64,000 nucleotides of DNA, from contig NMRA01000285.1 of NCBI GenBank assembly GCA_002633005.1, positions 419,505 through 483,504 on the forward strand, read 5' to 3'. Origin of the DNA: Phoronis australis. Taxonomy: Eukaryota; Animalia; Phoronida. A program made the translations under genes and the position numbers. Below are positions 27,701-52,400 of the stretch, one piece after another (position 1 is the stretch's first letter; every line of letters begins with the position of its first letter). The notes under the pieces are model-generated. The model saw only the letters and a list, made by a program, of their open reading frames with translations. It was not told the origin of the DNA and ran no database searches.

Positions 27701-30700
27701 GATACGTATTTTGCCCTTAAAGGCAAAGGCAACCTTTTTATGTCATTTTTAACGAAAATAAGGTTCGTTGATTATCCCAGACATATTTTTCAGTTAATTA
27801 CAGCTTTTTGGTAATTTAAACAATTTCTCGCCCTCTACTCCGGAAGTGACGTTTTGGGAGGCAAGAATTTCTCGCCAATTTATTTTTATACAGTCTGACT
27901 GTGAGAGCTGCCGAGTTAGTTATTGTTCTATCTCGGTTGTGACAAGCTCGGACGTCGTTTGCTTTTGTTTACCAGTCAGTCAACATGCCGCAATGTTGCT
28001 GCGTACCGGGATGTACTCACTATCGTCTCACAGACAGAGGAAAAACATTCCCACTAGCCCGAGTGTCTCGTGACACACTCCCACTGGATAGTGACCTGAG
28101 CACACAAACTGCTTACAACACGCCGTGTGACTCCCTCGCCACATACCTGGCACCTTCTAAATAACCCCAATACTTTAGACAAGTCCACAATAAACTTATC
28201 AAAGTTTGGCTTACCGATCTGTTCATTGAACAACGAACTGTCTTGTTCACTGGGTGTCGAACTGGGCCTGTATTCACTCCCACTACTCAACATCGCAGCA
28301 GGGCTGCTTACAGGCTCTCAGCGATAAAGAGTACATCCCGGTATGCAGCAACAGTGTGGCATGTTGACCGACTCATAAACAACAACAAACGACGAGCGAA
28401 CTTATCACAACCGAGGTAGAACAATGACTGACTCGACGGCGCTCACAGTCAGACTATATGAAAAGAAATGGGTGCGAAATTCCTGCCTCCCAAAACGTAA
28501 CTTCCGGAGTAGACAACGAATAATTAATTAGATAACGAAAAGCTAGAAGTGAAAAATATGTCTGGGATAACCAACGAACCCTATTTTTCCTAAAAATGAC
28601 ATGAAAAAAAGTTGCCTTCGCCTTTAAATTCATGGCACAACATAATACTAAGTACATACACCAGTCATCTTCTTCCTCCCACAGCTGATCCGAATCCTTA
28701 ACGGGTATATATGGCTGGCAAGCTTCACAATGGGGACACTGGGGTGGGCAGGTGAGCAGAGAAGATGGCAGAGTTATCACCACAGGAATACTGGAGTCAC
28801 TGAACTCCATTGGAGACTAGAAATAGAAATGATGGGTATTAACGCACAGAATATTATTTTTTTTTCAAAGATTTTTTTTAACCAGCACTTACTCCAAACT
28901 GTCTGGTGCTTAAACAACGAGACCAACTTTTCAGACTTTAGAGTTGAGCCCGCTTTCATAAACAAGGACTAATTATAAATAACCATTACGTCACTGATGA
29001 TGTTAGACGCAATATTCACCATTTCTCATANGTCAAGGCATTTGGAGATAGAGCAATGGACGCCGGACGGACTGATGGAGATGACAGCATAATGCGTCCA
29101 CATATAAATATGTGGGCGCATAAAAAACATTTGCTGAATCTCACAAGCAGGGATTAAGATGGGTGTAAAATAAAAATTAAAGTAAATAACTGCTAAATAA
29201 TACAAAAAAATACCTAATTATCTAATGAAGTTCACAAACATCAGGATTAAGATAAGGGAGCATAACAAGCTAGAATGTATATTTCTGTTTTCAAGATACG
29301 TATTTTGCCCTTAAAGGCAAAGGCAACCTTTTTATGTCATTTTTAACGAAAATAAGGTTCGTTGATTATCCCAGACATATTTTTCAGTTAATTACAGCTT
29401 TTTGGTAATTTAAACAATTTCTCGCCCTCTACTCCGGAAGTGACGTTTTGGGAGGCAAGAATTTCTCGCCAATTTATTTTTATACAGTCTGACTGTGAGA
29501 GCTGCCGAGTTAGTTATTGTTCTATCTCGGTTGTGACAAGCTCGGACGTCGTTTGCTTTTGTTTACCAGTCAGTCAACATGCCGCAATGTTGCTGCGTAC
29601 CGGGATGTACTCACTATCGTCTCACAGACAGAGGAAAAACATTCCCACTAGCCCGAGTGTCTCGTGACACACTCCCACTGGATAGTGACCTGAGCACACA
29701 AACTGCTTACAACACGCCGTGTGACTCCCTCGCCACATACCTGGCACCTTCTAAATAACCCCAATACTTTAGACAAGTCCACAATAAACTTATCAAAGTT
29801 TGGCTTACCGATCTGTTCATTGAACAACGAACTGTCTTGTTCACTGGGTGTCGAACTGGGCCTGTATTCACTCCCACTACTCAACATCGCAGCAGGGCTG
29901 CTTACAGGCTCTCAGCGATAAAGAGTACATCCCGGTATGCAGCAACAGTGTGGCATGTTGACCGACTCATAAACAACAACAAACGACGAGCGAACTTATC
30001 ACAACCGAAGTAGAACAATGACTGACTCGACGGCGCTCATAGTCAGACTATATGAAAAGAAATGAGTGCGAAATTCCTGCCTCCCAAAACGTCACTTCCG
30101 GAATAGACAACAAATAATTAATTAGATAACGAAGAGCTACAAGTGAAAAATATGTCTGGGATAACCAACGAACCCTATTTTTCCTAAAAATGACATGAAA
30201 AAAGTTGCCTTCGCCTTTAAATTCATGGCACAACATAATACTAAGTACATACACCAGTCATCTTCTTCCTCCCACAGCTGATCCGAATCCTTAACGGGTA
30301 TATATGGCTGGCAAGCTTCACAATGGGGACACTGGGGTGGACAGGTGAGCAGAGAAGATGGCAGAGTTATCACCACGGGAATACTGGAGTCACTGAACTC
30401 CATTGGAGACTAGAAATAGAAATGATGAAACACTGATATGTTAGAAATAGGGAACACCCTTTAGACCCTCACACATAAAAAGGCTTTCGTTTCCTGACAG
30501 CTTGTGGGGATAAAATTATTTTCATTTTCCGTGTTTAACTTTTCCACGCTAAGTAAGCTTTAAGTGATTATGCCAACTGCTGCAAAATGCTTCAACTCCG
30601 TAATACGTAATGTGGCTGACATAACGATGATTGCTGTTTGACCTTCTTACATGACTTTTCGTCAGTTTTCCATGCACTAAAACTATCTTTCTCTAGGGTA

Positions 30701-33700
30701 TTCATTTCAATGACAAGGGTTAGTGTGAATCATGTCCAACAGAAATTGCTGGTAGTTGCGATGTACCGAACACATAAGATCATGTTTAATACATATCCTC
30801 ATTTGTCAACGTGAATATTTGACAAGTGACTGAGCTAACCAAGCCCGTGAAATTTCTATGAATTATCAGCCTTAAACATCAATTCTACGTTGGCTGACCA
30901 GTCAAGATCACTATATACTCACTTAAAACTAATGTCATTTGTGGTTGAAAGTATGTTAACAATGTGCGGTAGGGTTGCGTATTAACGCACAGAACATTAT
31001 TTTTTCCAAATATTTTTTTAACCAGCACTTATTCCAAACTGGTGCTTAAACAACGAGACCAGCTTTTCAGACTTAACAGTTGAGCCCGCTTTCATAAACA
31101 AGTAAATAAACAAGGACTAATTATAAATAACCATTACATCACTCATGGTTTTAGACCCTTGCAACCACGTTCATTCCACGCAATATTCACCATTTCTCAT
31201 GTGCTGTTAGAATTATATAAAGTAAGGAACATCACACAATCGAAGGGAAATGAACTTTGTATTGAACGAGTTTGCTTGCAACGCATCTATTCATTATTTT
31301 CCGCGCATTACATTGACTTAAATTTCGTTACGAGTAGGTGGTGCACCATCCAGTAAAACAGTGAAATGCATTATTGGAACAGTTGTTATATTAATTAGTC
31401 TTGAATTACTCCCCTGGCGCTCATTTGAGGCCTGGCCAATATTTAACGGTGGTGTTTTTAATTGTCGTCTACCCGTACTGAAACTTGTTGAAGAATTGGT
31501 GCTAAAACGCGAAACAATGGCAGTCAATTATAATCTTCAATGAACACAGTAGTTTTCCAAGAAAAGTTTGACGAATTTTAAAGAAATCTGCATTACATCA
31601 TGGACGTTATGTCGGAAATCCAAGACAAAAAATGACGATAAAAACTTTGAAAATCAACTGAAAAATATTTCCTTTAAAGTTTTGCTGATTCTTGACCAGG
31701 AAAAATACTGTAGATGAAATCGCACTCGATTTCACTCAGCATTTTGATAGATTTCATAAAAGTTTATGATTTTCAATGTCATGGTTAATTTTATTTTTCT
31801 GAAAACTACAACTTTTTGGCTGGTACCTGAGGAATGTCTTCCCAATGTCTCTTCCTAAAACAGAACTTCATGGGCTGCCTGGGAGGAGGAACAGATGAAA
31901 GAGAACCAGTGCTGGGCGCTACACGTTTAGCAGCACTGAATGCATGGATGTCCATGTCGTACACGCACGACATGGCACTTGATCGGAAGTGTGAGTCCTT
32001 AGGACACGGCACCGTGTAACGAGACGTTCTCCATTTCCGTGTCGCTAGTGTGAACACAGCTGAGCGCCTGCCTCCAAACGAATGTACGTAGACCTTTCCC
32101 TGAGTGTCACTGTAGACAAGTGGGCCAAACTGGGCACCGTCAGAGCAGTTCACAGTCTCGCCAGTAACTACGTTATAGCAAACACACACTGGTGTCACCT
32201 TGTGCTCGCCGAGTCTACTAAAATTGTTAGCGAGTAAAAAGATGACCTTGTCTTGCACAGCGCAAGCGCAAAGATTGTCCAAAAAGGAATCCTTCTCTGG
32301 AATGTGATCTACAAAGATGCACTTATAGCTTAGGTCAGGACGCGTTGGAAACATGCGTATAAACACACGACTGTCGCTACCATCCCATTGATGTCTTTGA
32401 CCCACATACCCTATCATGCAAATGTATCCAGCACATGACACGACTAATTTGTGTTGGTAAAGATGGATCTGAGAGAACGCCTCGTTCACTTTATCCAATG
32501 CCACTCTGTCCCAACAATGTTTCTTTTGATTCAACTTCAGCAGTCTTGCCCCAGCCTTGTAACCATCTTCTTCTTGTACTAGGTAGAGCTCATTGTTGAT
32601 GACTGCACTGGCGTACCCCGACCTAAAGCCATGAGTGTGTTTCTGCTCCATAAATGGAAGTCGTACCCATCGTTTCTCCGCCATGATGTACGCATAGTGT
32701 TTAGACGACCGGCGAATGCCGCAAAACACGATAACATCTTTAGTATTCTTATCAGGGTCTATTTTACCCTTGCTTACTCTCCCTTCGTACTTTTTGATGA
32801 GCTCCGAACAGACTTTGCTCTCAGCAACCAGACTCTCTTCCTTGAACTTAGCCATTTCGGATGTTTTTATGAAGTCCATGTTGAGTGCTGCCACCAGCTG
32901 GTCAAGGTAAACTGCTCGACTTTCTGGCTCATGTTTCACCCAGCGTAGGATCAGGTCAAAGAACCTGACGGGCGTGTAATAACTCAGCATTTCATCCTCA
33001 ACAAAGCTGAGCAAGGTGTCAAAGGGCACCGTCATGATCTCTGGCTGCTGGGCAACTTTGATGAACGAAGCGTAAAGACACTTCTGTGCCTCCTTGTAGA
33101 GCTGCTCTAGATTGTATAGGTTGGCCAAAGAGCACATATGGAGACAATTGTCAATATTCACACCATCCTCACACAGCTGGCTAGCACATGTTTTCTTCAA
33201 ATTCTCTAACTGAAGGTAGTCCGCAAGTTTCAGCACGGCCTCAGCACAGCTACTCAGTCCTTCATAACGACCGGTGTAGATGTACCGCAACACGAACTTG
33301 ACGGACACCAAATCTGAGAAGTTGAGCTCAACTTTACCTGCGAACAGAAATAGAAATGGACAGTTTCCAAGTCCTAAAACCAATACAATGAATCTTCAAA
33401 GTCAAACTTGTTTTTCTTATCATTACAGAGATCAAATTTGCCTGTATAAATACTGGATCCAGGCTTCCCACAGTCTGACTAATGTATTCTGTGGATCGCG
33501 ACCAGTAACAGAGAAATGGCAGGTTTCAAAGTTAACTATGTGACATTAAACTAATCCCCTTTTAAATTACCTACTCAGATGCCTTAGGTGGGGATTCGTT
33601 TTTCTGGGTTACCATAGTGATATACATGTTGTAGTAGGGAACATTAAACACTAGAAAACGCGGTATTTAATTCACATTAGCAACACGATCGAAATCATAC

Positions 33701-36700
33701 AAGCAAAACATAACAGGTGACAGAGGAACAACACGTGGTGAAAAAAATGTAGAAAATAACAAGACTTTTCAGTGTTACCTGACGTTTTCTCAACCATGCC
33801 ACTACTGTAGAGGGACTGGAAATATGGGCACGCCATCAACACGCACCAGTGAGCTTTAACTTCCTGAAAATACAGCTCAGTCAGTAGTCAATGCAGTACA
33901 ACTACTCTGTCCACACTGCAGTGTCCTTCATAATGGACAAATCATACTCGATGGAAATCAATCTCAAGTAACTAACAAATTGAGAAATTACTCAGAAAAC
34001 CAGGGAGAGGTGTCAGACCATGCACTCATGAAAAGAAATCTTTAAGAAGTTGATCAGTGGGAATTTACCATCGACCAATTTGAGTTCTGGTAACTCATCA
34101 CCTATTTAGCAAATAGGATAATATAGTGAACAAGTACAATAGGGCATTCCCGCATTACATGGAACTCTCCTTTGTCCTGGAGATAAGAAAGCGGAAGACC
34201 CCGTTTCGGAAATCAGGGCCCATTTTCGTTGATGTCGGAAAGGCAAAGAATTTCAGATTACGCATTCACGGATATTTGCCCAGTTTATCAAACTTTTTCA
34301 CGTCGGATGGGCAGCCCACAGCACAGCAGTAATACGTTGTTGACATTGGAAGGAGTATAGTCATGCAGCCAAGAAAAACTTGTAAAGAATCAGACAATAA
34401 CAAATAACAAGTTAACTCCAGTGGCACAAAAACGAGGCAGCAAATGTGAATGGCGGATATTTACAGCATTATGGGTAAATACAGCATTCTGGGTAAATAC
34501 AGCAAGATTCGAGTGTCGCTGTGTAATCCGGTCCTTATATTCTGCGAAGTTTCTCTTTGACAACAAAAATACAATTACTTACTTTAATAGGGAAATTTTA
34601 ATTAATATTGGCATGTTGATTACCAGTAGTTCCATGCACATGCCATAAACAATATTTGGAAATAAAGCTTTTCCAACTTGTTGTACCGAGCCAAGCATGC
34701 CATGGCATCTATTCTGAACTAGTGAACGGGAGTAAAAACAGGTCCTACAGAAAAGACTGCCCGATAAATCAAACTTGAGACTGAGTTTAACAAAAACATG
34801 AATCATCTTGAATGCATCAAACAGAAGAGGAAGTTATCAACAGTGATATAGAATGTACAAGCAAAGATGCACTTTCGACAAAAAATCATCGTAGGTTCTT
34901 GTCTCTACCCCAACTCATTTTGAGACCTACACCAATTTCAGCCAAGGTCCCATGTAATTTTTTAAGGCAAAGGTAAGCAAGGTTTGAGATGCCATGATTT
35001 TTCACGCCATGAGAAGTAAAAAACAAATCCGGAGCCATTTTTGTTCACCTTGCCTAGATTCTCAGAAAAAAAATGTCCTACCAACGACTCGATTTTCAAA
35101 AGACTAGAACCAGCTACTGTATTTGTCCTAATAAGCACCCTGTAGCCGGTTGCATGAAACAAACCGAAATAGGGACTCAACTAAGGTCCCAAACTCTTTT
35201 TGCGTATTTGTGTCTTTATGGACTCACAGATCATATGCAATATTTTTCCAATCGTTTCATCTTTATTATGAGCTCCTCTTTGATTAATGACATTTTCTAA
35301 TGATATAACTAAAAACTGAGCCCAGAGTTCATAGAAAATAAATAGGGACTCAGTCCTTAAATTGGGGGTGTTGCATGAAAAGATCCCTAATTATTTTTGA
35401 TAACATTGACAATGCAACGTAGAGTTTACACTGAATTTGTATCAAAGACAAAAGTTGACTTAGTAATGAAACCAAAACGATACAAGAAAGGGCAATGGAT
35501 GTTTTCACAAGCCCACTAATATGAAGTAGATTTAGGGAACTTAGTTGAGTCCCTATTTGGGACTGTTTCATGTATCCGGGCACAGGGCGCTTAGAAAAAT
35601 TCGCTTCAGGAAGGGGGGGGGGCTTATTATAGCCCAAAAGTGGTTGAAACAGGGTCTCCACAACTCCACAACGTGTGAAATCGTAAGCTAAAATTCAATA
35701 AAATTTACGATCTGTGACGCATCTGTAACCTAAGACAGAGTTTCTACAAAATTGCAGTGCACTGCTATCAAACTTTGTTGTTAAATTACAAGCATTTTCC
35801 AGAAAATCCCAGTGCAAAAACTCGCCGACTGATGCACTGCTGCCTTACGAGTGCTGATAGGTCAACTTGAATTCTTGAGTAAAAATATAATTATAGTTTT
35901 AACTCAATAAATTACCTGAAGTCCTCCTTAAGTTTTCAAAATAGCATCCCTAAGATTTTTTTAAGTTCCTATGGAGTCGGGATTAACTGCATATTAAGTC
36001 CGAATCTGCACTAGATCGTACTCCGTCTTGTGATGTTTGTTTTGAAGTTCGTCCGCGTATTGTGTGAGAGAGCGAGCATGTGCGTGTCATCAGATTTCAT
36101 TTGCCAGAGTTAACACGATGCAACGATCTAGGTGTGCATTGTAACTAAGGAAATTAACAAAAGCAGTAAAGCAGAACGTCTTTAATTTAAAACCTGTTGA
36201 TCTCATCTGATAAAAAACGTTCGAGAATTGTCTCGGTAAGGTCGATGTCATTAAGTCGCCAGGTGACTGGATGCGTGACAGTATAAATAATAAATAGTTC
36301 TCGAAGATTAATCTTCGACGACAGATTCTTGAATGTAGCGCAAGCTTCCTAGCCATGTGATTTTAACAGGTCAAGTTTTTATTCGTCTTTGATTTGCGGT
36401 TTTCATGTGTACAAAGAGATTTGGATTCCTGTTGAGGGAAAGATCGGTACAGGAAAGATACAATACAACCCCATTGACAAGTACGCAGCGTCCGTTGTGA
36501 AAGGCCAGACCATAAAAGGACACGTGCCTGGCAAGATCAGCAAAACTTGCGTTCTTTTTGAAGCACAACGGAAGTTTAAAGTGTTTAGTCACGGCTAAAT
36601 ACCGACATAGCCGTGACGCTCGTGGTCTACAAATTCCGCGCACAATGTCGGATCTTATTGATAAAGTGGAGACGTTACTGTAGAATTTTAAAACTGTAGG

Positions 36701-37882
36701 TAAGGCATTTTTCGCATGTGCACGGCGTTCATGGACTGGGCGCTTATTTTAGAAAAGTCTGAANGAGCATGTGCGTGTCATCAGATTTCATTTGCCAGAG
36801 TTAACACGATGCAACGATCTAGGTGTGCATTGTAACTAAGGAAATTAACAAAAGCAGTAAAGCAGAACGTCTTTAATTTAAAACCTGTTGATCTCATCTG
36901 ATAAAAAACGTTCGAGAATTGTCTCGGTAAGGTCGATGTCATTAAGTCGCCAGGTGACTGGATGCGTGACAGTATAACAGTTACTTTTCGGGAGATTAGG
37001 AGGGTGTAAGGGTGCAGAAGTGTTCACTATTGGTGGGTCATTTTGACTTTAAAAACACCAATTATGACCACTTTAATAATTCCCCCTTAAAAATAACGCT
37101 AACATTTTTTACGGTATTAGAAACTTTCGGAAATAAGTGCCAGTATTTATTTCTTGCCGATGCTATGCAACCCGTTTCATGAATAAATAATTCTCGAAGA
37201 TTAATCTTCGACGACAGATTCTTGAATGTAGCGCAAGCTTCCTAGCCACGTGATTTTAACAGGTCAAGTTTTTATTCGTCTTTGATTTGCGGTTTTCATG
37301 TGTACAAAGAGATTTGGATTCCTGTTGAGGGAAAGATGGGTACAGGAAAGATACAATACAACCCCATTGACAAGTACGCAGCGTCCGTTGTGAAAGGCCA
37401 GAACATAATAGGACACGTGCCTCGCAAAATCAGCAAAACTTGCGTTCTTTTTGAAGCACAACGGAAGTTTGAAGTGTTTAGTCACGGCTAAATACCGACA
37501 TAGCCGTGACCCTCGTGGTCTACAAATGCCGCGCACAATGTCGGATCTTATTGATAAAGTGGAGACGTTACTGTAGAATTTTAAAACTGTAGGTAAGGCA
37601 TTTTTCGCATGTGCACGGCATTCATGGACTAGGCGCTTATTTTAGAAAAGTCTAAAAACGCGTGGGGGTGCTTATAGGGGCATGGGCGCTTACGGTATAC
37701 TTTTCTGGGCTCGGCTTGTTCTAACTGCTGCGTACAAAGTGTTGGCTCACCTGTCCTTCAACAGAGATGATCAGGTCACAGAGAGGTGACTCATCTTCTC
37801 TTTGCTTCCACAACAAATCCAGTATACCATGTCTCCATTGCGAGTCTGTTCCGCTCCAGTAGTACGATGGTAGCTGGGACAT
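24709..37882 (-). CDS. Divergent BTB-BACK-Kelch-like protein (KLHL/KBTBD-like) with Cys-rich, acidic and CaaX C-terminus, about 664 aa
   Basis: Exons on -: 37882-37751, 33863-33779, 33337-31827, 30409-30253 (second copy 28816-28660), 26190-26094, 24721-24709; total 1995 nt, in frame. BTB: LCDLIISVEGQEVKAHWCVLMACPYFQSLYSSGMVE...VLRYIYTG...LADYLQLENLKKTC. BACK: NCLHMCSLANLYNL...ILRWVKHEPESR. The last three exons are inferred from splice signals and phase only. Confidence 0.8.
26094..26190 (-). CDS. Kelch-like exon 5, acidic (GDESDDEYFEDFYHDSDYMDDYNSDNGSNND)
   Basis: Acceptor ttttttag, donor TG|GTATGT; phases 1 to 2. Confidence 0.75.
26184..26291 (-). repeat. 4 x 27-28 bp repeat containing the Kelch-like exon 5 acceptor
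   Basis: TCTCCAGCTAAA recurs with spacing 28, 27, 27. Confidence 0.9.
26837..27533 (+). mobile_element. Non-autonomous Helentron/HINE-like element
   Basis: Starts ACAAGAGCAACGCAGAGCATTG; about 150-bp internal repeats; GACG/GACT microsatellite remnant; 3' hairpin ATGCGTCCACATAT-AA-ATATGTGGGCGCAT followed by an A-run. Confidence 0.65.
27721..28623. mobile_element. Kolobok-like non-autonomous DNA transposon
   Basis: TTAA on both flanks, AGG...CCT termini, imperfect TIRs of about 300 bp, internal transposase-like remnant KFIVDLSKVLGLFRRCQVCG...QWECVTRH. Confidence 0.8.
28660..28816 (-). CDS. Second, probably allelic, copy of Kelch-like exon 4
   Basis: Same 157-nt exon with two synonymous differences, inside a duplicated block that ends at the single N at 29031. 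Confidence 0.5.
29315..30216. mobile_element. Kolobok-like element, second (probably allelic) copy
   Basis: Near-identical to 27721-28623; TTAA flanks. Confidence 0.75.
30253..30409 (-). CDS. Kelch-like exon 4 (SPMEFSDSSIPVVITLPSSLLTCPPQCPHCEACQPYIPVKDSDQLWEEEDDW)
   Basis: Acceptor tttctag, donor T|GTATGT; phases 0 to 1 fit both neighbours. Confidence 0.75.
31827..33337 (-). CDS. Kelch-like exon 3 (BTB C-terminal half, BACK, divergent beta-propeller)
   Basis: Lies within the 525-aa ORF 31806..33383; acceptor ttcgcag near 33338, donor CAG|GTACCA near 31826. Confidence 0.92.
33779..33863 (-). CDS. Kelch-like exon 2 (EVKAHWCVLMACPYFQSLYSSGMVEKTS)
   Basis: Variant of the BTB core AHxxVLxxxSxYF; acceptor ttttcag, donor AG|GTAAC. 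Confidence 0.9.
35143..35582. mobile_element. Harbinger-type MITE nested in another dispersed repeat
   Basis: TIRs of about 50 bp, GCCGGTTGCATGAAAC...ATAGGGACTCAACTAAG / CTTAGTTGAGTCCCTAT...GTTTCATGTATCCGGGC; flanks CTG/CAG. Confidence 0.65.
36074..37697 (+). mobile_element. DNA transposon remnant with a decayed HIRAN-like ORF, present twice around the single N at 36764
   Basis: ICGFHVYKEIWIP...NPIDKYAASVVKGQTIKGHVP..IS, then after a frameshift CLVTAKYRHS...GLQIP; right end ...GGGCGCTTACGG-TA. Confidence 0.6.
37751..37882 (-). CDS. Kelch-like coding exon 1 (MSQLPSYYW...LCDLIISVEGQ)
   Basis: Acceptor ttttgttgcag near 37904, donor CAG|GTGAGC; start of BTB. Confidence 0.88.
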
Positions 37883-39006: not shown

Positions 39007-39759
39007 CTTCCTTGTAGGTGATTACTTAACTAACAACAGGTTTCATTTGTCTAATTAATTAATTACTGGATTTGATTATTCACTCTCCATCTAAGCACAA
39101 TCTCAAAGCATAGCTACCTTTTAAACAAACCCACAGTCAATATCTGACAGTTATCATCTTGGTCACGTACTGAAATTACTACACAAGGCAAAAATAATCA
39201 GACAACATTCCGTACAATGGGTACTGAGTACTCAAAGTTCATTCCTACAGACTCTAAACGTGAATTTCACTTAGTTCAAGGCTCCTCGTGGTAGCTGGGC
39301 CATCAGTCATTTGAGGGTAAAGGTGACTGTGCCTTCTGAGAGGAGAATGCCTTTTGGCCAAAGGGTTTGGATGCTAGACACTCACAGTGGGAACAACAGT
39401 TCAAGTCTCGGTGTCAACAGATGCTTCAAACACAGGGTCTCTTAAATGAACACATCGATTTTCAATTTTTACATGAAGTAAAATACAGAGAGCTATGTAC
39501 AATTAGATTGAAAAGATTAATAAATAAAATAAATTAGTAATAAAAATTAATTAATAGGTACAATTAGATGAATAAATAAGATAAAATAGAGTAAAATAAT
39601 GATGAGCTGAGGCCAACAGTCCTGAACCGCACACTAAGTCCCAGTATTTATGTTTGAAGACGTGGACATTGGGCGCATTCGTGACAGCAGTCACATGCTG
39701 CTTCGCAAGCGGCAATTGCCTCTTACTCTTAGACTAATTTTTTTAGCCTTAGACAGTGC

Positions 39760-40243
39760 TGTTGTAATAGCAGAGATTACCCGACCCGGGAATCAAACCA
39801 GCGACCCCCATAAAACCGGCAAGCGTGCCAACCATTCAGCTAATAGGAAATTGCCTATTGGCGAGTAGCTAACAGAAGCTCATATGATTCCCCGGAAGCA
39901 CAACTACAACATTCCCCCATTCCTAAGTAGCAGGCACCAGGATGTCTCGCATACAGGTCGATCATCAACGTCCCTTGGTACCTTTACCACCACAACACGT
40001 AGTCTCTCATACAGGCTCGTCCTCGACTCCTGGAACCTTTCATGCGCGCCGTCCCGAGGGTACTAATTGGCAGACTACGCCATTTGTTATATATTGTAAA
40101 AGCCGAGATTACCCGACCAGGGAATCGAACCAGCGACCCCCATAAAACCAGCAAGCGTGCTTACCATTCAGCTAATAGGAAATTGCCCGTTAGCGAGTAG
40201 CTAACAGAGGCTCATATGATTCACTGGAAGCACATCTAGAACA
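39760..40243 (-). mobile_element. TRIM (miniature LTR retrotransposon) with tRNA-like A/B boxes in both LTRs
   Basis: Two direct repeats of about 152 bp (39760-39911 and 40092-40243, about 90% identical) with TG...CA outer ends. PBS TGGCGTAGTCTGC at 40070-40082 on -; PPT AGGAATGGGGGAA at 39912-39924 on -; flanks GTGC/GTAC. Confidence 0.85.
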
Positions 40244-40608
40244 GTACCACCCTCTGAACTGGTGCACAGCTGCCACTGGATTTTTCAACAATGAAAAATA
40301 CCTTCATGACAATTGTTTCGACTCACCTGTTAGGCACTCAGTAACTCAGTTTTAGTGTACTCTGTGCTGCGATTAACACTGAACACTGTTGGGTAGAGGT
40401 GTAAAATATGGGTGCTGTAGTGCACGGTGCCAAAGGTTGTGGTGTGCGGTTGGTGAGTGATGTTGAACTGCATGTGAGTGACTCATTTATCATTCCTACA
40501 CCTACGGTCAGTGCACACAATCGATTTGGGGAAAACCCGGTTTTGTAATGCGTATATCCCAGAGTATTGCGTTTTGTATGTATCTAAGTAAACATAAACA
40601 TCACTTAC

Positions 40609-40929
40609 TCAAGACTAATTAAAATATCAGCATTTCGCACAAAAACGTTTGGAAAAGCGCACTCTCCACACGTTGCCCCAGCCAAGTGCAGTCTCGTCTC
40701 CAAGCCTCAAGAAGGCGCGCTGATCAGTTAATCCTCAAATGGTCTGTACTGTATATAAAATACATGCGAACAAACATCTTCGTTTGCTTTTCATAGTTAG
40801 TGAAAGTGCGGAAGTTGATTTGTTGGCAGAAAGAAAAGGCAGTGGAAGAAGAATCGCTGCACAGCTGAGACGGGACGTACTATGATTACACAGATGTAAA
40901 AAGTATTTTAACGGGATTTCAAAGTTTCA
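40609..40929. promoter_or_regulatory. Putative bidirectional promoter with non-coding first exons of Kelch-like (-) and SLC41 (+)
   Basis: Outward-facing donors GA|GTAAGT on - near 40608 and CA|GTGAGT on + near 40930; locally CpG-richer; ETS-like GCGGAAGT at 40808-40815. Confidence 0.5.
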
Positions 40930-42034: not shown

Positions 42035-42951
42035 GGATCCAACTAGAGAAGGTTGTCACTGTCCAGGCAATTACAAGCATGAGACTAAGCGAAGATCGTG
42101 ACCTTGTGCTTAACACATATAACATGTAGCTTGGGAAGATATTTTGGAGTTTGTAAGATGTTTCTGGGACTTTTTTCGTCAACAGACGTAATTTTGTTTA
42201 ACTTCCTCAAAATTCACCAGGTGAGGGAATGTCGGGTGAACCGTGACAAATTTTCACGGATATGTTCAAATTATGTTGACTAAATTTTCTCCAGATTATA
42301 TGTTAATAATAACCAATTATGTATGCATGTTTCATTCAATGCTATTTTCTGTATTTTGAGATGAGTAACCTTTTATGGTGGTGTACTATTGCCTGTGTAC
42401 ACCAAATTATACAATATTGCACTTGGACCTTAGGCCTATTACTAGCAAAATGGCTTCCAGTCTGAAGTGTTTTGTCAGTGAAAGTGGAATGATGAATTAG
42501 ATAGAATTCTTTATTTTCATTCTGTTAGCAAAGGTCTTTTATTGTAATTGCCTCGTGAATGTCTTGCACTTACGAAACTCATCCTTAGTTGTGTCTGAAT
42601 GCGAGTGTGACAGTTCAATCAAGGTGCAGGACCACCAAAAATAACTATCAGTGTTATGGCAGAGAGACACGGTGTGAGTCACGTGTCCATGTCATCAACA
42701 AGCGTACTACATGTAGCACATCCTCTTCCCTTCACCTGGTCTTTTCCGTTGACCTGGTAGTTGTGATGGTTTTGAAATTGATAACCATACATGTCCCCCT
42801 ATTTGTGATGCCTGCTGTCATATGCGTGACCTTTGCATTATTCTCCAAGTATTTCTGCTTTCCCCAAGAATTCAGGTCTTTTAAATTTTGTATTTAATTT
42901 TTCAGAAGCTGTGCTGAAGATTAGAAGTTTAATGTCGACGAGGGCACAACT

Positions 42952-43404
42952 ATGTCAAATGACTTCACTCGGATAAGACAACGTAAAATGGTACCCAAAG
43001 TGTCACAAACTCCATCTGGTGACAGTGCAGAAGATGGTGTACTCAGTGACTCGGAAAGTCAACATCAAAAATATGGCACCGTTACTGACATGCATGCATC
43101 CGATTTACATGTGAGGCACCTTTCACCCCGCGACCGACTACGCTCACCTACTGAGCTTCATGGTGCACTAGATACTCACAGCACAGATGTGTATGAAATG
43201 GAGACTGATGTGGACACTGGCCTATCACAGCCACTACTTTCTGGTCACGATCGGCTGTCAGATGGCCACATGTCTGACGTAGAAGAACCACGTCCTGTAG
43301 AGGTGACTGAGTCTTCATTCAGCATCGCTCTACAAGTGTTCATCCCCTATATGATAGCAGGGTTTGGCATGGTTGGTGCTGGCATGGTGCTAGATGTTGT
43401 GCAG
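42952..43404 (+). CDS. SLC41A1: SLC41 coding exon 1 (N-terminal tail and TM1)
   Basis: Acceptor near 42905, ATG at 42952, donor CAG|GTAAAC; [14 protein letters not shown] motif. Confidence 0.9.
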
Positions 43405-46400
43405 GTAAACAGGTTAGAAAAAGTATAAGCAAGAAGTATTAGACAAAGTCTTCATACACTCCATATGTTGTTCACATCACATGGCCCATGATTAAGTCCG
43501 AAAAGATCTCTTCTCGCTCTGTGCCATACGATGCATTTTTGTCATCTGTCACAAACTACAGTATAATGCGAATGTCATACAATTTTTTATTATTAAACAT
43601 TTACCTTTCATATATTTACTGTCAAAGCAACAGGTAAAGGGCATACAGTGTAAGGTGAGTCGGCAACTGATAGTGAGCAGAAATCAAATCGGCCCAAGTG
43701 ATGCTAATAAAAGTTGCCGAAAGTTAGTTTAGCGCCCAGCAGTAGATTTGGCCCACCTGTCGGGCCGCATCAGTTATTACCATCTGCTTTGTTGTGGCAG
43801 TTTATTCCATGCTAAATCGCTCAGGAACCGATTGACTTTGGAAATATAAGCATGAACCACGGATGGCTCCAAAGTTGATCTTAAAGTCCAGAATCTTACA
43901 AATCTGCTTCCAGTAAATTATTAGGAATTGTGGTTCTCATTATCACCATTTTAGTAATCATTTAATTTGTATACTGAGTAATGCTGCGAAAAGGCTGCCT
44001 GCTTATGTGCTTGGCATTATAAAGTCTAACCCAGCCTCATGTGATGTGTTAGACGACTGAGTTTACAGTGTCTAGTTGAAGCTGCATTTCTAAATAAATA
44101 ATAGAACTTTGTTTACCTCCACCGCTACCTATTGTTGCAAATGCTTTGCTTTGAAGTGTCTTAATTCTCTCATCATCATGTTTTTNNNNNNNNNNNNNNN
44201 NNNNNNNNNNNNNNNNNNNNNNNNNNNNNNNNNNNNNNNNNNNNNNNNNNNNNNNNNNNNNNNNNNNNNNNNNNNNNNNNNNNNNNNNNNNNNNNNNNNN
44301 NNNNNNNNNNNNNNNNNNNNNNNNNNNNNNNNNNNNNNNNNNNNNNNNNNNNNNNNNNNNNNNNNNNNNNNNNNNNNNNNNNNNNNNNNNNNNNNNNNNN
44401 NNNNNNNNNNNNNNNNNNNNNNNNNNNNNNNNNNNNNNNNNNNNNNNNNNNNNNNNNNNNNNNNNNNNNNNNNNNNNNNNNNNNNNNNNNNNNNNNNNNN
44501 NNNNNNNNNNNNNNNNNNNNNNNNNNNNNNNNNNNNNNNNNNNNNNNNNNNNNNNNNNNNNNCAGTCAGATCTTGACTCATGAGATTGGAGCTTAAAACA
44601 GACTTGCCTGATAGCGAAGATACCTTAGGGCTGTTCCAGCAAAATCTGTGTGGGGGGGGGCAAGGCAACTGAAATAAAAATTTATGGGTGGTTGCGTTTG
44701 ATTTAAATTCAAAATGGCTGGTGGTCGTACTTCAAAAAAATAAAAATTTACAGGTCGTTGTTGTTTCATTGGGCCATAAATGTTTGATGGTGGGTAATTT
44801 TAGTAAATTTTATAAACAATCCGTACAGAATCAAAAACAGAAACAAAATGCAACTTGCAAAAAGCTCCGACTTTTTCACTCCCTCCGATCTCCCCATCAG
44901 CATTCCCATAACACCAGTCAACCACAGGCGCTCGAATTTCTCGATGGCTAATAACCATATATAAGAAATATATGTTTTCTTAGTAATGAATGACGTTAGT
45001 GGTGATGGAGGAACAGATAAACTCAAGCGCCTGTGCAGTCAACAACAAGAACAAAAAAAAATTACGGGTGGTTGCATTTCAAACTTATAAGAAATTACGG
45101 ATGGTAGGCTGAAGAAATAAATGAAAAATATGGGTGGTGGGTGCGAAAAAAGGTGCCTTCCCCCCCCTCCCATACAGATTTTACTGGAACAGCCCTTAGT
45201 ATTTCTGAGTTGGAACTCTGGCATTTTTAACCCTTAAGGATATCTCAAACCTTATTCCGAAAACTTGGCCATTTTTACAATATTTGATAAATATGTTTAC
45301 CAAAATACCTCATCTTCATTCTCGTAAAACTTCAAATATAAATTTAAGTCTGTGGAGCAAGAAAAAAATTCTAGCAGAACCACCTTGGAACTGCACAACC
45401 TGGTGGAAATTTATTTACTACTTGTCCGAGGCCGAAGGTTATAGGGCTGTCTCTCAAATAGAATCTCCTGCCAGACATAGAGCAGAACTGTATGTACCCT
45501 CAGTCCTTTCATTCACTGAGTTGCCACAATATTGAGTCAATGAGGTGTACATATGATAGAAAGATGCCCGGGGGAAAACTAAGACAAAATTTAGTTTTGA
45601 TCTTCAGGGAGTTAATGTTCATCTGCATGCATACGGCTGTTGTGGAAAGAGATAAATCCTCGCCCAAATTCATTAATTTGATAGTTCTGTGTAATTTGAC
45701 ATTTGGCTGTTTGGATTTCGTACTCATGATGTGCTTTTACGACCGACCCGATTCTGTACCTAGTTTCATGTCAGTCTCCCAGGGCGTGGTGTGTATAACA
45801 ATGAACTGTTGACCTACTTTGTCAACAGTTGACCCCGCCTTGACTGGAAACGGTCACAAAATTAAAATGTCTTTAAAATTATGATAACTTTACTACACAC
45901 TGCAAATTCAGTTGGCATTGCGAGTTAATGTTGAAACAGCAAACATGGATAAGGTGTGTATAGGTTATATTGACTGAATACAAGTTTTCACCAAATAATT
46001 AACCGAAGATGTTGAGATTTTCACTTCTCACTACATACTCGCTTTTTTTGGCATTGGCAAATCGACTTAATATTGTAATTTGAACTTAGGAACACCACTT
46101 CTCGAAAATGGCTTGGTGGATTTCACTGATTAAACTTTCCAAACTTCATCAATCTCAAAAATGCTATGAGGATTTTTCGATATAAAGGCTTAGTTTTTGC
46201 AAAATACAAGTGCTATTTTTTGCAAAAATACTTTCTGCCAGTTGATTTGTCATAGAAACCAAACTAAAAAAAACTAATGAAAATTCCTAACAGCCTTTTT
46301 GAGGTAAGTGGTGAAGTTTTCATTAAACAAGAGGTTTCATTAAAATCGACCGAATGCTTATTTTGGTATGAATCTACCTTTCTTAAAAATGACATTTTGA

Positions 46401-49400
46401 CTTAAAAATATGTTAACATAATAATAATAATGGCACATAAATGTAAAATATGTTTTATAATTATCTCAGATCTCTTTTCTTTCAGAAAACATATGCTTTT
46501 ACTTGTTGACAAAGCCTAGTTTTTTGATGTACGAGTTATAATGGAGGCCACTAAATAAGGATTGAGATAACCTTAAGAGTGTACTCGTGGGTTTAAAAAC
46601 GTAACAAAAAGAATGATTTAGAAAGCTGTAACTTGTTAACCTGAAAGACCTATGCTGCTGTTGACTAGTGACTCAATGTTCTTGCTTGTATAGTTACAAA
46701 CTCAAGCTTAATATTTGAATAATGTGCGTACACAATCCACTTTTGATCCTAATCTGAAACTAAGAGTTCTAGAGTATATCTATTGTGCTTGCTCTATGTG
46801 CTTTTGTACTTTAGAACCAGCCGTAATTTCTTACTAACTCATTTTCAGGCTCAAGCGATCGTTGTGGGTTTCCTCGCCAGTGTGGCTGCTATGGTGCTCG
46901 GCTGGATACCTCAGGGGAAGTTTGACATTCATCACGGCTTCCTTCTAGGAGCCAGTAGTATGCTGACTGCCTCGTTGGCTAGCCTGGTCTTAGGTCAGTG
47001 CCAATTCTGTTGTGTGCTTGCTTAGATTTTTTAGGGAATATGCCAAACTTTATTTATGGCCAAAAAAGCATAGTTGGGTCTGATCTGTACAACATCACCT
47101 CATTTTTGAGACCTGTGATTAATGCCTAAAAATTGAAAAATGCCCACACTCAGTTTCAGCCAAGGTCTGGTGTGGATATATAGAAAAGCAGCGCAAAGGC
47201 ACGCTAGCTAGGGTAAGCAAGGTTTGAAGCACCATGATTTAGTAACCAATTAGTAAAATATCCTGCATCATTTTTGCTCATCTCGAGTGGATTTTCTGTT
47301 CTGAAAAAGTAAGCAACAAATAAACCTCAACATCGACTTGATCATCAAATAAGAGACCAGAACCCTTTATGCTTTTTGCCTAAACTTCTTGGTTTTTTAA
47401 TTTTGGCAAAATTTGATGGTATTACTTACTTAACTTTTTGCAGGCCTGCGGTATTTTTCCCCTGTTTATTGGGCAATGTTGAATTCTTAACCGAAGCATT
47501 TTGTAGGATAAAACCTGTACATTATCATGCTCATCCAAACTTGAATTGCTGTTGAATGAGCCGGCAACTCAAGACAAAGCAATATGCTGCAGATGCGCTA
47601 TTTTCAAATTCACAATTTTAGGATTCAAAACCCTGTGATTTATTAATGTGTTTGAGTTGCTGTTTGGCAAATGTGTGGGGTTTTGTGGTTTTAGTAATTT
47701 ACAAGGAGCATAAAACAGATTCGTTGCAAAATACAAGGCAGAATTAGTACAGACTGGCAAAGAAAAAAAATAATGCGCGAATAGTTGTGAACATTAGCAT
47801 TGCTTAGCGTGACCGCTCTTTCACACCTCACCAAAGCCAACTTGTTTCAATACTTACAACAATTTACCTTGCGTTTGCAGGCTCCATAATGATACTGGTG
47901 ATTGTTCTGTCCCGGAAGTGCCGTGTCAATCCAGACAATGTGGCCACGCCCATAGCAGCTAGCCTGGGCGATCTCATCACATTGACTGTACTGTCTGCTA
48001 TAGGATCACTGTTACATAATGCTTTAGGTCTGTATCTGTGGGTGGGTGTACATCTGAAGATGTACTGTACATACCAAATGTATTTAGACAAAATAGTTCC
48101 CTGTTGTGACAACTAGGCAGAAACAAAATTCATCTTCAGAGTGGTCTTCCCTCATGACCGAGAATGAATGGAAACTAACGGTAATGTTAGTAACGTGGCT
48201 TAGTCTTTCTGTAAGTATTTCGAATGTTGCCATCCTAATAACTATTACCTGTCATTTTTGTTGTTCTTAAAATGAACCGTTATGACAGGGAAGTGTCATT
48301 TTATCTGATTGCTTCTGATTGTTGATTGTATTGGATGTATGTTTGAAGGATTTTTTGTAAATGGGTGAAATGTTGATCCATTCGCAGCTAATGTTTAAAC
48401 TTATTCCAAACTGCGACACTTTATGAAATGGGACAGAAATGGATATTGGATTCTGTTTACAAGTTCAAGCTGTTTACGTTGGCAGTATATACCTGTCAGC
48501 ATACCCTTTCCAAAAAATCTGGTTATGCGCATTCAATGGGCATAAGAAATACCAATGGCAAATTTAACCCCGTCTCTTCCGATATCTTAGTTTTTTCCTC
48601 AATCCATGCATACTTAGTGTAAGTACCTAATATTTTGATATCATTATGCAGATCAGTCCAGAGCAATGTGTTCATTTTCATTTCTTTGACCAGCCCGTAA
48701 GTTCATGTTGTGTTCTTCAATCGTTCCTAGTAGTTTCTTTATCGTTTCCATGGTGATTACAGGTGTGAAGATATGGTTAGCACCCACTATATGTGCAGTA
48801 CTCATTCTCCTCACTCCTTTCATGATCTATATATCGATAAAGAACAAGTATACCTCTGAGGTCATTTACACCGGCTGGACACCAATTATATCTGCCATGG
48901 CCATCAGCAGGTATGTACGAACAGTCACCAATAATCCTGGGCTGTTCCCAACTTTGTGAGCCTTAACCTGTCATGAAATTTGTTAAGGGAATGAAAGTGT
49001 ATTCTATCCATTTGCTTTGTCTCCACCTCTGTATTTTGACATATAAATGATCAGTCACTGACTTCGTTCCCAGACAATCCAAGAATTCACTACACAAGGA
49101 AGTATGATGGTTGAAGGAATTTAGCTAATATCTCACCAATGTGGCACACAATATGGAGGAAAAGTAAAGTTTCATTCTTTTTTATAAAATTTAGTATGAC
49201 CAAACTCTTTATTATTTTAAAGTTATATACCATAGCTTCCATCAGGCACTGTTTGGAGCAATTTTGGCATTATTACTTTTGTCCGAAATTGTGTTTACCA
49301 TATGTGTTCACCATCATGTAATGGCCTGGTAAAGTGATACTTGAAGTGCAGCCCTTATTAGTTTATAATGTTGTAGAGGTAAACCTTGGCATAGACTTGT

Positions 49401-52400
49401 TGTTATCATCTTGAAGATAGTCGATAATTTTATGTCATCATCCATTGTTCCCATCTGTCCGGAGTCAGTTCGGGGTTCGTCCGCCGTCCGCCTGACATCC
49501 ATCTGGCGTCCGTCCGACATCCATCTGGCATTTGTCCGACGTCTGCTGCTCTATCTCCAACACCATTTGGTGCATGTGGCAATTTTATTTTTTTATGTTT
49601 ACCTCGTCTGTGTCTTCATATGGGCATGTACATGTATTAGTAAGATGACGCTATCCTCCCGTTTTCTGAATTCGACATATTTTGCACAACCTTGTGGGTA
49701 TTTTTATTGTTTTCGAGTCTGTTTATTGTGCATGCACCCCTCTGTCAACCAAACTACTCTAAGGATCATTTGTAAAAATTGGGAGTATATGTTTTTACTG
49801 TGAAGAGGGCAGTTGACAAGGATTTTCCTCCGACTTCTACTTCGGTGGCGCTTCCTAGTGGAAGTTTTTTTGCATATACGCCCATGGCTGTATCTCCTAA
49901 ACGCTCTTCAGAATCTTTATTAAATTTAGTAAGTGTATTGATGTAAAGGTAACAACAGACAGAGACGACTTTCGGATGGATTGAACTACAGGTGTGCCCC
50001 CTAGTGACAATTTAAGTTTTTTACGCTTATCTCTATCATCAGAGGTCCTCAACAGATTTTCATAAAATTTTGAAGATAGGCATCGATTAATGAGTTGATG
50101 CTATCCTCTTGTTTTCAGATGGAGTCGAGGTATTTTGCACCAGCTAGTGGCCATTTATGCTGTTTTTGAGACTGTTTTTTGGCATCCGCCCCTCTGTTAA
50201 CCAAACCACTCTAAGGATGATTGTAAAACTTGGCGTATATATGTTCCTACTGTGAAGAGGACGGCTGATGGTGATTTTCCGTTGACTTTGACTACTGTGA
50301 CGCCTCCTAGTGGCAGTTTTGTTTTTTTACACCTATGGCTGTATCTCCTAAACCCTCTGCAGGATATTTATTAAAAGCAAGTGTATCAACATGAAGTTGA
50401 CAGCGAATGATGACGACTTTTAAACGGTCCCGATGAATGCTGTGCCCCCTATTGGCAATTTCTTTTTTCCGTTTTCGTCTGTTTTTCTGAAGTTCCTTGA
50501 GGGATTTTTTTGAAATTTGGCAAATAGTTTTCTGTTAAAGAAAGGATGACATGTTTTTGTTTTCGGATAGATTCTACGTATTTTGTGCCATCTAGTGGCC
50601 ATTTTTATTGTTTTGCAGTCTGTTTTTGGCGTATGTCCCTCTATCAACCAAACGCTATTAGGATGATTTGGAAAATTGGTGTTAATGTTTCTACTGTGAC
50701 GAGGATGGCTGATGATGATTTTCGGATGACCCGGACTTTTGTGGCGCCTCCTAATGGCAGTTTTTTTGCATCTATGGCTGTACCTCCCTAACTGCCTACA
50801 AGATATTTATTGAATTTGGCAAGTGTATTTATATGAAGTTGACAAAGAACGATGACGACTCTTGGATGGATCTGACTTCTGCTGTGTCCCCTTAGTGGAA
50901 TATTTTTTCGTTGTTCTCTGTATCTTTGAAACTTGTTGGCAGATTGTTATGCAATTTTATATCAAATAGATAAAATATTAAATAGATAAAGACTCCACAT
51001 GTTCCTGTTTTTGGATAGCTTCAATGTATGGCGGCTGTTTTTATGATCATGAACTTTTGCAAATAGGTTTCTAATAGGAAGAAGACGATGCCTCCTGATT
51101 TTTGGGCGGATTTGATGTATTCTGCACCACTCGGTGGCCATTTTTTAAAAAAATTTTTGAGTATGTTTTTAACATCACCCTCTCCATCCACCAAACCGCT
51201 TGAAGAATCATTATCAAAATTTGTAGATCTGATGTGTTCCTGATGAGATGATCGAGGCTGACGTTTTTTTCGGATGTGTTCAACTACTCTGGCACCCCTT
51301 AGTGGCAATTTTATTTTTTGCATTCACGGCTGTATCTTAAATAACCCTTTGGAAGATCTTATGTTTGCTCCTATGGAGATGGCAACAGATGATGGCCAGT
51401 TTCAGACCAATCCAACTGCAGCTGTGCTCCTCAGTGGCAGTTTTATTTTTACGTTTGCCTCTTTAACTTCAGAGTTCCTTGTTCCTTTTTTTGAAATTGG
51501 GCAAACAGCTTTCCTTTTTGGTATGGATTCGATGTATTCTGTACCAACTAGTGGCCATTTTAATTATTAGTCTGTTTTTTGTCATCTGCTTCTGTATCTG
51601 CCAAACAGCACAGAGGATCGTAATAGAAATTGGCAGATTCCTACTGATAAGAGGCTGACTGACATGGATTTTTCAAACGGGTCCAACTAGTGGTGCCTTC
51701 AGTGACATTTATTTGTATCTATGGCTGTATCTCTTAAACCCCTTGCAAAATGTTTTTGAAATTTTGCAATCCCTATTAACTTGGCAGCAGACGGACGGAT
51801 TTGACTACTGCTGTGGTTCCTAATGGTAGTTTACATTATGTATATTTAGAGTTCTTTGACAGATTTTCATGAAATTTGTTGGCAAATAATTTTGAGAGAT
51901 GATGTCACCATTCCATTTTTGTATGGGTTCAATGTATTCTGTGCCATGTAATGGCCATTTTTATGCTAGAAATAAACACTCCTAGAAGCACACTATTTAC
52001 GGTACAGTCATGGGCACATATCAATGCTCTGCATTGCTCTTGTTATGTTACAGTGTTGGTGGTCTCATCCTTGATTTTACTGTCTCCAGCAAGAAATTTC
52101 TTGGCATCGCAGTCTTTCAACCAGTAATTAATGGTGAGTGCCTTATAAAGTTTTACTTTAATTCTTAGGTTAAAACATCAATTGTCCAATGTCAGAATCT
52201 GGAAGATTTGGAAGACAAAAATNCAATATGTTTTTTTATATTGTGCAACCCATTGGACACTCAGTCTTCTGTTGAAGAATCCTGTACTCTTCTCAGGAAG
52301 TGGTTGAATCCCACGCTGTGTAGTGTTACCATGATTAATTTTTTACCTCATTCTGATAACAGCATTGCAAACCTTGTTTTCTTTAGTCAGTTCCCTGAAT

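What the first reader, a model, noticed from the sequence alone, without database searches (positions are those of the whole stretch)
39760..40243. Complete 484-bp TRIM whose LTRs contain a tRNA-derived Pol III promoter (Cassandra/Ajax-like)
Seen in sequence, on -: 5' LTR (40243 to about 40085/40092), PBS TGGCGTAGTCTGC, about 170 bp of non-coding internal sequence, PPT AGGAATGGGGGAA, then the 3' LTR (39911-39760, TGTTGTAG...TTACAACA), with GTGC/GTAC flanks. Each LTR has a hairpin (CTGTTAGC-TACTC-GCTAACGG in the 5' LTR), an A box TAGCTGAATGG, and a B box GGTTCGATTCC 43 nt downstream, which is tRNA spacing. Established: the PBS matches the 3' end of eukaryotic tRNA-Ser (complement TGGCGTAGTCGGC) at 12 of 13 positions. 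TRIMs with small-RNA-derived LTRs are known: plant Cassandra and Helenus carry 5S, and Ajax carries tRNA, to my knowledge reported from a phoronid. Inference: this is a SINE/LTR hybrid, transcribed by Pol III and mobilised by a helper LTR element, and it may be an undescribed family in this lineage. Caveat: a TTTT between the boxes could terminate Pol III.
Basis: partly seen in the sequence, partly recalled or inferred. Interest (0 to 1): 0.8.

Follow-up and report, generated by a model that had tools for sequence, protein, structure and literature searches.

The report
New Helenus mini-retrotransposon with tRNA-like LTRs
This is a real, gene-less 484-base jumping element, found in many copies in this invertebrate's DNA, whose two end repeats carry tRNA-gene promoter motifs; it is a new family of the kind named Helenus in 2024, likely transcribed like a tRNA gene and likely moved by a Gypsy helper element.

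Summary
The element is real: two 90%-identical TG..CA LTRs, a tRNA-Ser PBS (12/13), a PPT, no coding capacity, tRNA-spaced A/B boxes. DNA contigs of the host show a dispersed family ending exactly at the LTR termini, mostly solo LTRs; two other copies have 4-bp TSDs by paired flanks. This meets Kojima's 2024 definition of animal Helenus. The family is not among the published consensuses, its PBS type is unlisted, and the host is no listed species tested (nearest copine Lingula, 68-72%; phylum unresolved). Pol III transcription is untested; RNA-seq shows only passenger copies. This scan has noted Helenus-like elements in at least 13 other genomes. One new lead: the hairpin plus self-complementary 10-mer before box A recurs, with changing sequence, in 54 of 76 non-insect animal Helenus LTRs and both Ajax LTRs (by-eye count), which the paper's text does not mention. 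New member of a known kind.

The parts
40244..40247 (.). target-site flank at the 5' LTR end (GTAC on +)
   Evidence: 3 of 4 letters match the other flank
40085..40243 (-). 5' LTR, TG..CA, 159 nt including about 7 nt near 40088-40095 that most other copies lack
   Evidence: table 4; loose ends of 35 (X1) and 45 (X2) contigs at 40243
40187..40207 (-). hairpin CTGTTAGC-TACTC-GCTAACGG, predicted U3
   Evidence: -12.6 kcal/mol, z -3.08; like-placed hairpins in bivalve, nemertean and fish Helenus LTRs seen by eye
40178..40187 (-). self-complementary 10-mer just before box A; imperfect in this copy (GGCAATTTCC), perfect in most copies of the family (GGCAATTGCC)
   Evidence: table 3 (place 40180: 32352 of 32550 depth in X1, 212043 of 213486 in X2); self-duplex -16.4 vs -3.0 kcal/mol
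40164..40174 (-). box A (TRGCNNARYGG)
40144..40147 (-). TTTT between the boxes; possible Pol III terminator that would have to be read through here
40121..40131 (-). box B (GGTTCGATTCC)
40070..40082 (-). primer-binding site, 12 of 13 complementary to the 3' end of human tRNA-Ser
   Evidence: (PMC3299991 template)
39912..40084 (-). 173-bp non-coding internal region; holds TCGAGGACGA (40026-40017) and a 13-nt direct repeat (40014-40002, 39956-39944)
   Evidence: longest ATG-started frame on the element strand 36 codons
39912..39924 (-). polypurine tract abutting the 3' LTR
   Evidence: 12 of 13 purines
39760..39911 (-). 3' LTR, 152 nt: decayed hairpin 39875-39855, 10-mer 39855-39846, box A 39842-39832, TTTT 39815-39812, box B with one change 39799-39789
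   Evidence: loose ends of 21 contigs at 39760 (X2)
39756..39759 (.). target-site flank at the 3' LTR end (GTGC on +)

Best explanation
This is one aged, full-length copy of a dispersed, non-coding LTR retrotransposon family of the Helenus kind, likely transcribed by RNA polymerase III from the A and B boxes in its 5' LTR and likely copied and inserted by the enzymes of a Gypsy helper primed by tRNA-Ser. Shown: two LTRs, PBS, PPT, no coding frame, tRNA-spaced boxes, many copies ending at the LTR termini. Inferred steps: (1) Pol III starts some 12-20 nt before box A (about 40194-40186), at the self-complementary 10-mer; (2) it reads through the TTTT at 40147-40144 in a fraction of rounds and stops at the same TTTT in the 3' LTR (39815-39812), giving an RNA of about 380 nt with about 45 nt repeated at both ends; (3) the RNA is packaged by a Gypsy element, primed by tRNA-Ser, and integrated with a 4-bp duplication; (4) LTR-LTR recombination has left mostly solo LTRs. 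The 10-mer, present at both ends of such an RNA, would pair with another copy of itself (dimer or end-to-end pairing); this last step is the weakest. This copy's LTRs differ by 0.108 (K2P) and its 10-mer is imperfect in both, so it is probably no longer a source element.
For: Anatomy. PBS. Family: 1309 (X1) and 1605 (X2) DNA contigs lay on 39300-40700; summed depth over the LTR is about 3000 times the unique flank and falls from 23973 to 78 (X1) across 40243; internal region 46-187 times; LTR-PBS junction about 45 times (the tool warns this is no copy number; X1 and X2 are one sample). Loose ends pile at 40243, 40096 and 39760 with unlike flanks (agreement 0.36-0.44). Other LTR-internal-LTR copies: X9 record 26, X5 record 19, joint 40059>39760. 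TSD: both abundant right flanks in RNA reads have a left flank ending in the same 4 letters (CTTC, GGGC), and neither extends to 5 (paired by me). Definition, 4-bp TSD and Gypsy link of animal Helenus: PMC10886601. Shared motifs with published Helenus: hairpin+10-mer+box A layout and TCGAGGACGA in 9 Data S1 entries (chance about 1e-4 in this internal region).
Against: No discrete Pol III transcript seen: in three RNA runs of one study 494, 465 and 533 reads lay, 75-86% run on into unlike sequence, both orientations occur, no place has a pile of read starts or ends, and only 3, 7 and 1 reads are 99%+ like this copy. Library type is unspecified and reads are fragments, so this is a weak test. 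No tRNA covariance hit, so tRNA origin rests on motifs. The family shows no T run after box B, unlike many published Helenus LTRs (table 3, place 40100). This copy's TSD is 3 of 4; the two other TSDs are not bridged by single reads.
Confidence: 0.75

Rival explanations
1. An ordinary TRIM, moved in the same way but transcribed by Pol II or by read-through from host genes; the A and B boxes are relics of an old tRNA/SINE capture.
For: RNA reads look like passenger copies in host transcripts, both orientations, no start pile-up. TTTT lies between the boxes. Kojima states that Pol III use is not validated for Helenus.
Against: Boxes are at consensus with tRNA spacing, and most copies have C at the box B position where this 3' LTR differs (place 39795). 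No room or TATA-like signal was sought or shown for a Pol II promoter.
Confidence: 0.2
2. A tRNA-derived SINE head that was locally duplicated, with PBS- and PPT-like motifs by chance.
For: LTR depth is 16-60 times the internal depth, as a free small repeat would give.
Against: The high-depth unit is the whole TG..CA LTR, including the part upstream of box A; ends pile at LTR termini, not at tRNA boundaries; other copies carry the PBS junction and internal region; 4-bp duplications; no poly-A or simple-repeat tail. Published Helenus families also reach LTR:internal ratios near 20 (Table S3).
Confidence: 0.02
3. The LTR encodes a working small RNA (tRNA-like molecule or ribozyme), as in retrozymes.
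For: An earlier scan note reports a twister-like fold in a tRNA-promoter LTR of another genome (e1-10599781, unchecked).
Against: No Rfam match at E<=10 over 39740-40260; no cloverleaf, fold no better than shuffles (z -0.19 and 0.41); only about 30 nt follow box B.
Confidence: 0.03

Closest known systems
Helenus (TRIMp3), animal families, Kojima 2024, PMC10886601 (read: main text parts 1-5 of 6 plus passages; supplement parts 1, 5, 6, 7, 10, 11 of 11 plus searches)
   Same: Under 1 kb, non-coding, two LTRs with TRGCY..YGG box A and GGTTC box B, PBS to a tRNA 3' end, PPT, 4-bp TSD, many solo LTRs; size (152-nt LTR, 173-bp internal) within the bivalve/nemertean range; hairpin + self-complementary segment before box A as in Helenus-4/5_PeMa, 1_MoPh, 1_LiLo; internal TCGAGGACGA.
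   Different: PBS TGGCGTAGTC has 0 hits in the supplement (listed Ser primers read TGGCGCTGC and TGGCGACGAG). LTR motifs of this family have 0 hits. T4 lies between the boxes, not after box B. Host is outside pteriomorph bivalves and is not Lingula anatina or Lineus longissimus.
Ajax (nemertean TRIM with partial 5S sequence), same paper (LTR consensuses seen)
   Same: Same size class; by eye its LTRs also have a hairpin, a GGAATTCC-like segment and a tRNA-type box A-like stretch before the 5S part, followed by TGGTTGGC as in this 3' LTR; Ajax-1_NGe has the internal TCGAGGACGA.
   Different: Ajax has 5S box A/IE/box C, a tRNA-Leu PBS and 5-bp TSDs; this element has a tRNA box B, no 5S match and 4-bp TSDs.
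Cassandra (plant TRIM with 5S LTRs; seen through PMC10886601 and passages of PMC7215508; the original paper was not held)
   Same: Pol III promoter inside both LTRs of a TRIM; reported start in the 5' LTR and stop in the 3' LTR, the model borrowed here.
   Different: 5S-derived, plants, transcription shown; here tRNA-type, animal, transcription not shown.
biv-TRIM of bivalves (passages of PMC6934838)
   Same: Animal TRIM of similar size.
   Different: No canonical PBS and no mention of Pol III boxes; this element has both.

Membership tests
Helenus (animal) | TRIM layout under 1 kb: LTR-PBS-non-coding internal-PPT-LTR | tested here: met
   484 bp
Helenus (animal) | [quoted passage not shown] | tested here: met
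   motif level only, ARAGORN and Rfam find no tRNA
Helenus (animal) | PBS complementary to the 3' end of a tRNA | tested here: met
   12 of 13 to human tRNA-Ser; the host's own tRNA not available
Helenus (animal) | 4-bp target-site duplication | tested here: met
   3 of 4 here; CTTC and GGGC in two other copies by pairing loose ends, not bridged by single reads
Helenus (animal) | dispersed multi-copy family with solo LTRs | tested here: met
   depth and loose ends; one DNA sample
Helenus (animal) | does not encode a working tRNA | tested here: met
Helenus (animal) | Gypsy helper sharing the PBS type | not testable with these tools
Helenus / TRIMp3 | transcription by Pol III from the LTR | tested here: inconclusive
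   passenger-like reads, no start pile-up; library not suited
Ajax | 5S rRNA-derived promoter in the LTR, 5-bp TSD | tested here: not met
   no 5S match; 4-bp TSD
tRNA-derived SINE | tRNA head at the 5' end, tail, no LTR termini | tested here: not met
   ends pile at TG..CA LTR termini; boxes are 70 nt inside
a family already in Repbase/Dfam | high identity to a named consensus | tested here: inconclusive
   0 hits for 4 family motifs in Kojima's Data S1; Repbase and Dfam are not on hand

The most novel reading that the evidence does not exclude
The hairpin plus self-complementary 8-12-mer just before box A is a conserved RNA signal (dimerisation or pairing of the two RNA ends) that marks one old lineage of animal Pol III TRIMs, spanning fishes, coelacanth, bivalves, nemerteans and this host, with Ajax derived from it by gaining a 5S segment; this would cut against the published view of many independent births by SINE insertion, and this element may add a new animal phylum.
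Probability: 0.35. Interest if true: 0.55.

Novelty: new member of a known kind. Interest (0 to 1): 0.3.

Why it matters
As a family record it is modest: it extends Helenus to a lophotrochozoan-like host outside the species listed in 2024 and adds a primer type. Solo LTRs in the hundreds to thousands would scatter tRNA-type promoter motifs through the genome and into host transcripts. The more useful outcome is the lead on the conserved hairpin and self-complementary segment: it gives a testable handle on how non-coding Pol III TRIMs get packaged and switch strands, which Kojima lists as unknown, and on whether animal Helenus and Ajax share one origin.

Tried and rejected
No second copy in the window. 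Rfam at E<=10: two chance-level hits outside the element, none inside; ARAGORN none. Two pattern scans of metagenome contigs: 0 matches. No RNA holder was listed by the run index. Earlier scan notes by sequence: none; by words 'Helenus palindrome hairpin upstream box animal': none; none of the same-genome notes shown concern this family. Host placement: the kelch protein found only 2 distant hits; the copine tree (31 rows; 5 of 35 chosen proteins left out for length) leaves the window in an open fork; in the SLC41 tree (10 rows) the window lies outside a starred pteriomorph clade, but a clade of window plus bivalves is not rejected (p-AU 0.27). So the phylum is not settled. Organism B (X5) is not taken as a second host: its best contig is identical to this very copy over 183 nt. 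Folding of the internal region is no better than shuffles (z 0.51). A paper search on T4 read-through gave nothing usable (listing only). Ribozyme, SINE and Ajax readings rejected as above.

Full report
Observation. The minus strand of 40243-39760 reads LTR, PBS, internal region, PPT, LTR. The LTRs align without gaps at 135 of 150 letters (K2P 0.108). The 5' LTR ends at 40085 and has about 7 extra letters that most other copies lack (table 4). Box A and box B lie 43 nt apart; a strict pair occurs once in the window and in 0 of 40 simulated windows. The 3' LTR has one change in box B and a broken hairpin. The PBS matches the 3' end of human tRNA-Ser at 12 of 13 letters (template printed in PMC3299991, passage; PMC10284701 passages agree over the first 11 letters). 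The longest ATG-started frame on the element strand is 36 codons. ARAGORN and Rfam see no tRNA, so the tRNA origin rests on promoter motifs and on likeness to published LTRs.

It is a family. Two DNA runs of one sample gave 1309 and 1605 contigs; summed depth over the LTR is about 3000 times that of the unique flank, the internal region 46-187 times. The tool warns that this is no copy number; hundreds to thousands of LTRs and tens to a few hundred internal regions is a fair reading. Depth drops sharply at 40243, and loose ends of 21-45 contigs pile at 40243, 40096 and 39760 with flanks that do not agree (0.36-0.44). The part of the LTR upstream of box A is as deep as the tRNA-like part, so the repeated unit is the LTR and not a SINE head. 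Other LTR-internal-LTR copies exist with a longer segment after the LTR (joint 40059>39760). In RNA reads the two abundant right flanks begin CTTC and GGGC, and left flanks ending in the same four letters are present; neither match extends to five. I paired these; no single read bridges both sides.

Expression. Three RNA runs of one study (about 18-19% of each read) gave 494, 465 and 533 reads; 75-86% run on into unlike sequence, both orientations occur, no start or end pile-up is listed, and 3, 7 and 1 reads are 99%+ like this copy. This looks like solo LTRs carried in host transcripts. It gives no support for a discrete Pol III RNA, and is a weak test against one.

What is known. Kojima 2024 (PMC10886601; main text parts 1-5 of 6; supplement parts 1, 5, 6, 7, 10, 11 of 11; parts 2-4, 8, 9 only searched) defines Helenus as TRIMs with tRNA-like LTR sequence, with 4-bp TSDs and Gypsy-type PBSs in animals, and Ajax as a nemertean TRIM with 5S sequence. 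Every testable Helenus feature is met. The family is not in that paper's consensus set by four motif searches, and its PBS type is not among those listed. A search for Helenus papers since 2024 listed 4; passages of two later ones add no families. Repbase and Dfam could not be checked. This scan has 45 notes on such elements in at least 13 genomes (unchecked), so the kind is common.

Host. The window holds spliced copine-8-like and SLC41 genes and a BTB-BACK gene. Copine is closest to Lingula (67.7% BLAST, 72% aligned; next best bit score 689 against 716) and 64% to Lineus; the tree leaves it in an open fork, outside starred bivalve, ambulacrarian and chordate groups. SLC41 is 62-65% identical to pteriomorph bivalves, which are 72-78% among themselves and form a starred clade without it. 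A lophotrochozoan, perhaps a lophophorate, is my inference; the phylum is not shown.

A lead from the comparison. Most copies have G where this copy has T at 40180 and 39848 (table 3), which makes the 10 letters before box A a perfect palindrome, GGCAATTGCC (self-duplex -16.4 against -3.0 kcal/mol; perfect 10-mers occur at 0.16% of window sites). Reading Data S1 by eye, 54 of the 76 non-insect animal Helenus LTRs have a self-complementary 8-12-mer at this place (18 of 18 chordate, 33 of 51 bivalve, 3 of 3 nemertean, 0 of 3 Lingula, 0 of 1 ctenophore); the other 22 keep a tRNA-like 5' end. Its sequence changes while pairing is kept (GGGTTAACCC, GAAGTACTTC, GGAGATCTCC, GAATCGATTC, GTCCGGAC, GGGAATATTCCC). 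In 48 it reads as an even palindrome whose departures are G-T; in 6 it has one unpaired centre letter. Most also have an upstream hairpin (not counted). Both Ajax LTRs show the same hairpin, palindrome and tRNA-type box A-like stretch before their 5S part, and the internal TCGAGGACGA is shared by this element, 7 bivalve Helenus, 1 wasp Helenus and Ajax-1_NGe. The paper's main text has no 'hairpin', 'palindrom', 'inverted' or 'self-complement', and a library search for TRIM plus palindrome plus dimer plus tRNA found 0 papers; figures were not seen. Cautions: boundaries were chosen by eye, which favours G-T over A-C; related families are not independent; insect and fungal LTRs were not counted; no covariation test was run.

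Mechanism. Shown: anatomy, multi-copy dispersal, LTR-defined ends. From established LTR retrotransposon biology and the Cassandra precedent (as stated in PMC10886601): start in the 5' LTR, stop in the 3' LTR, tRNA priming, PPT priming, integration by a helper. Inferred here: Pol III start 12-20 nt before box A (tRNA-gene geometry, recalled), partial read-through of the first TTTT and stop at the second, giving about 380 nt with a repeat of about 45 nt that holds the palindrome at both ends; Gypsy helper from the 4-bp TSD and 3'-end tRNA primer. The palindrome would let RNA ends or two RNAs pair; a plain fold of this copy's predicted RNA does not pair the two 10-mers with each other, as expected of its imperfect version but also no support.

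Verdict. Real, well explained, a new family of a known group. Interest 0.3; the palindrome lead is the part worth following.

Noticed in passing
window 39469-39692: A second, unrelated AT-rich dispersed repeat of about 220 bp ends about 70 bp from the 3' LTR; many contigs at about 85% identity, summed depth 100-190 times the unique flank. Another short repeat lies at 39300-39346.
   Followed up: no
PMC10886601 Data S1, Ajax LTRs: Both Ajax LTRs carry a hairpin, a palindrome and a tRNA-type box A-like stretch upstream of the 5S part, suggesting that Ajax arose from this Helenus subtype.
   Followed up: partly
window 40050-40232: A contig of run X5, labelled as another organism, is identical to this copy over 183 nt including its private extra letters; other X5 contigs show diverged LTR starts.
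   Followed up: no
window 39760-40243, joints: Joints 40243>40092, 40243>39962 and 40212>39760 hint at head-to-tail LTRs or tandem arrays elsewhere in the genome; each rests on one contig per run.
   Followed up: no
window 31806-33395 (-): A 529-codon open frame with BTB and BACK domains and a diverged kelch-like tail; only 2 hits at about 25% identity among 7995 candidates scored.
   Followed up: partly
window 1597-21873 (+) and 42925-56584 (+): Spliced copine-8-like and SLC41/MgtE genes; used only to place the host.
   Followed up: partly
window 27433-30427, 36074-37656, 49636-51964 with 26892-27379: A 1.4-kb tandem duplication at 99% identity with inner inverted repeats, a second local duplication, and a roughly 450-bp repeat family in several copies.
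   Followed up: no
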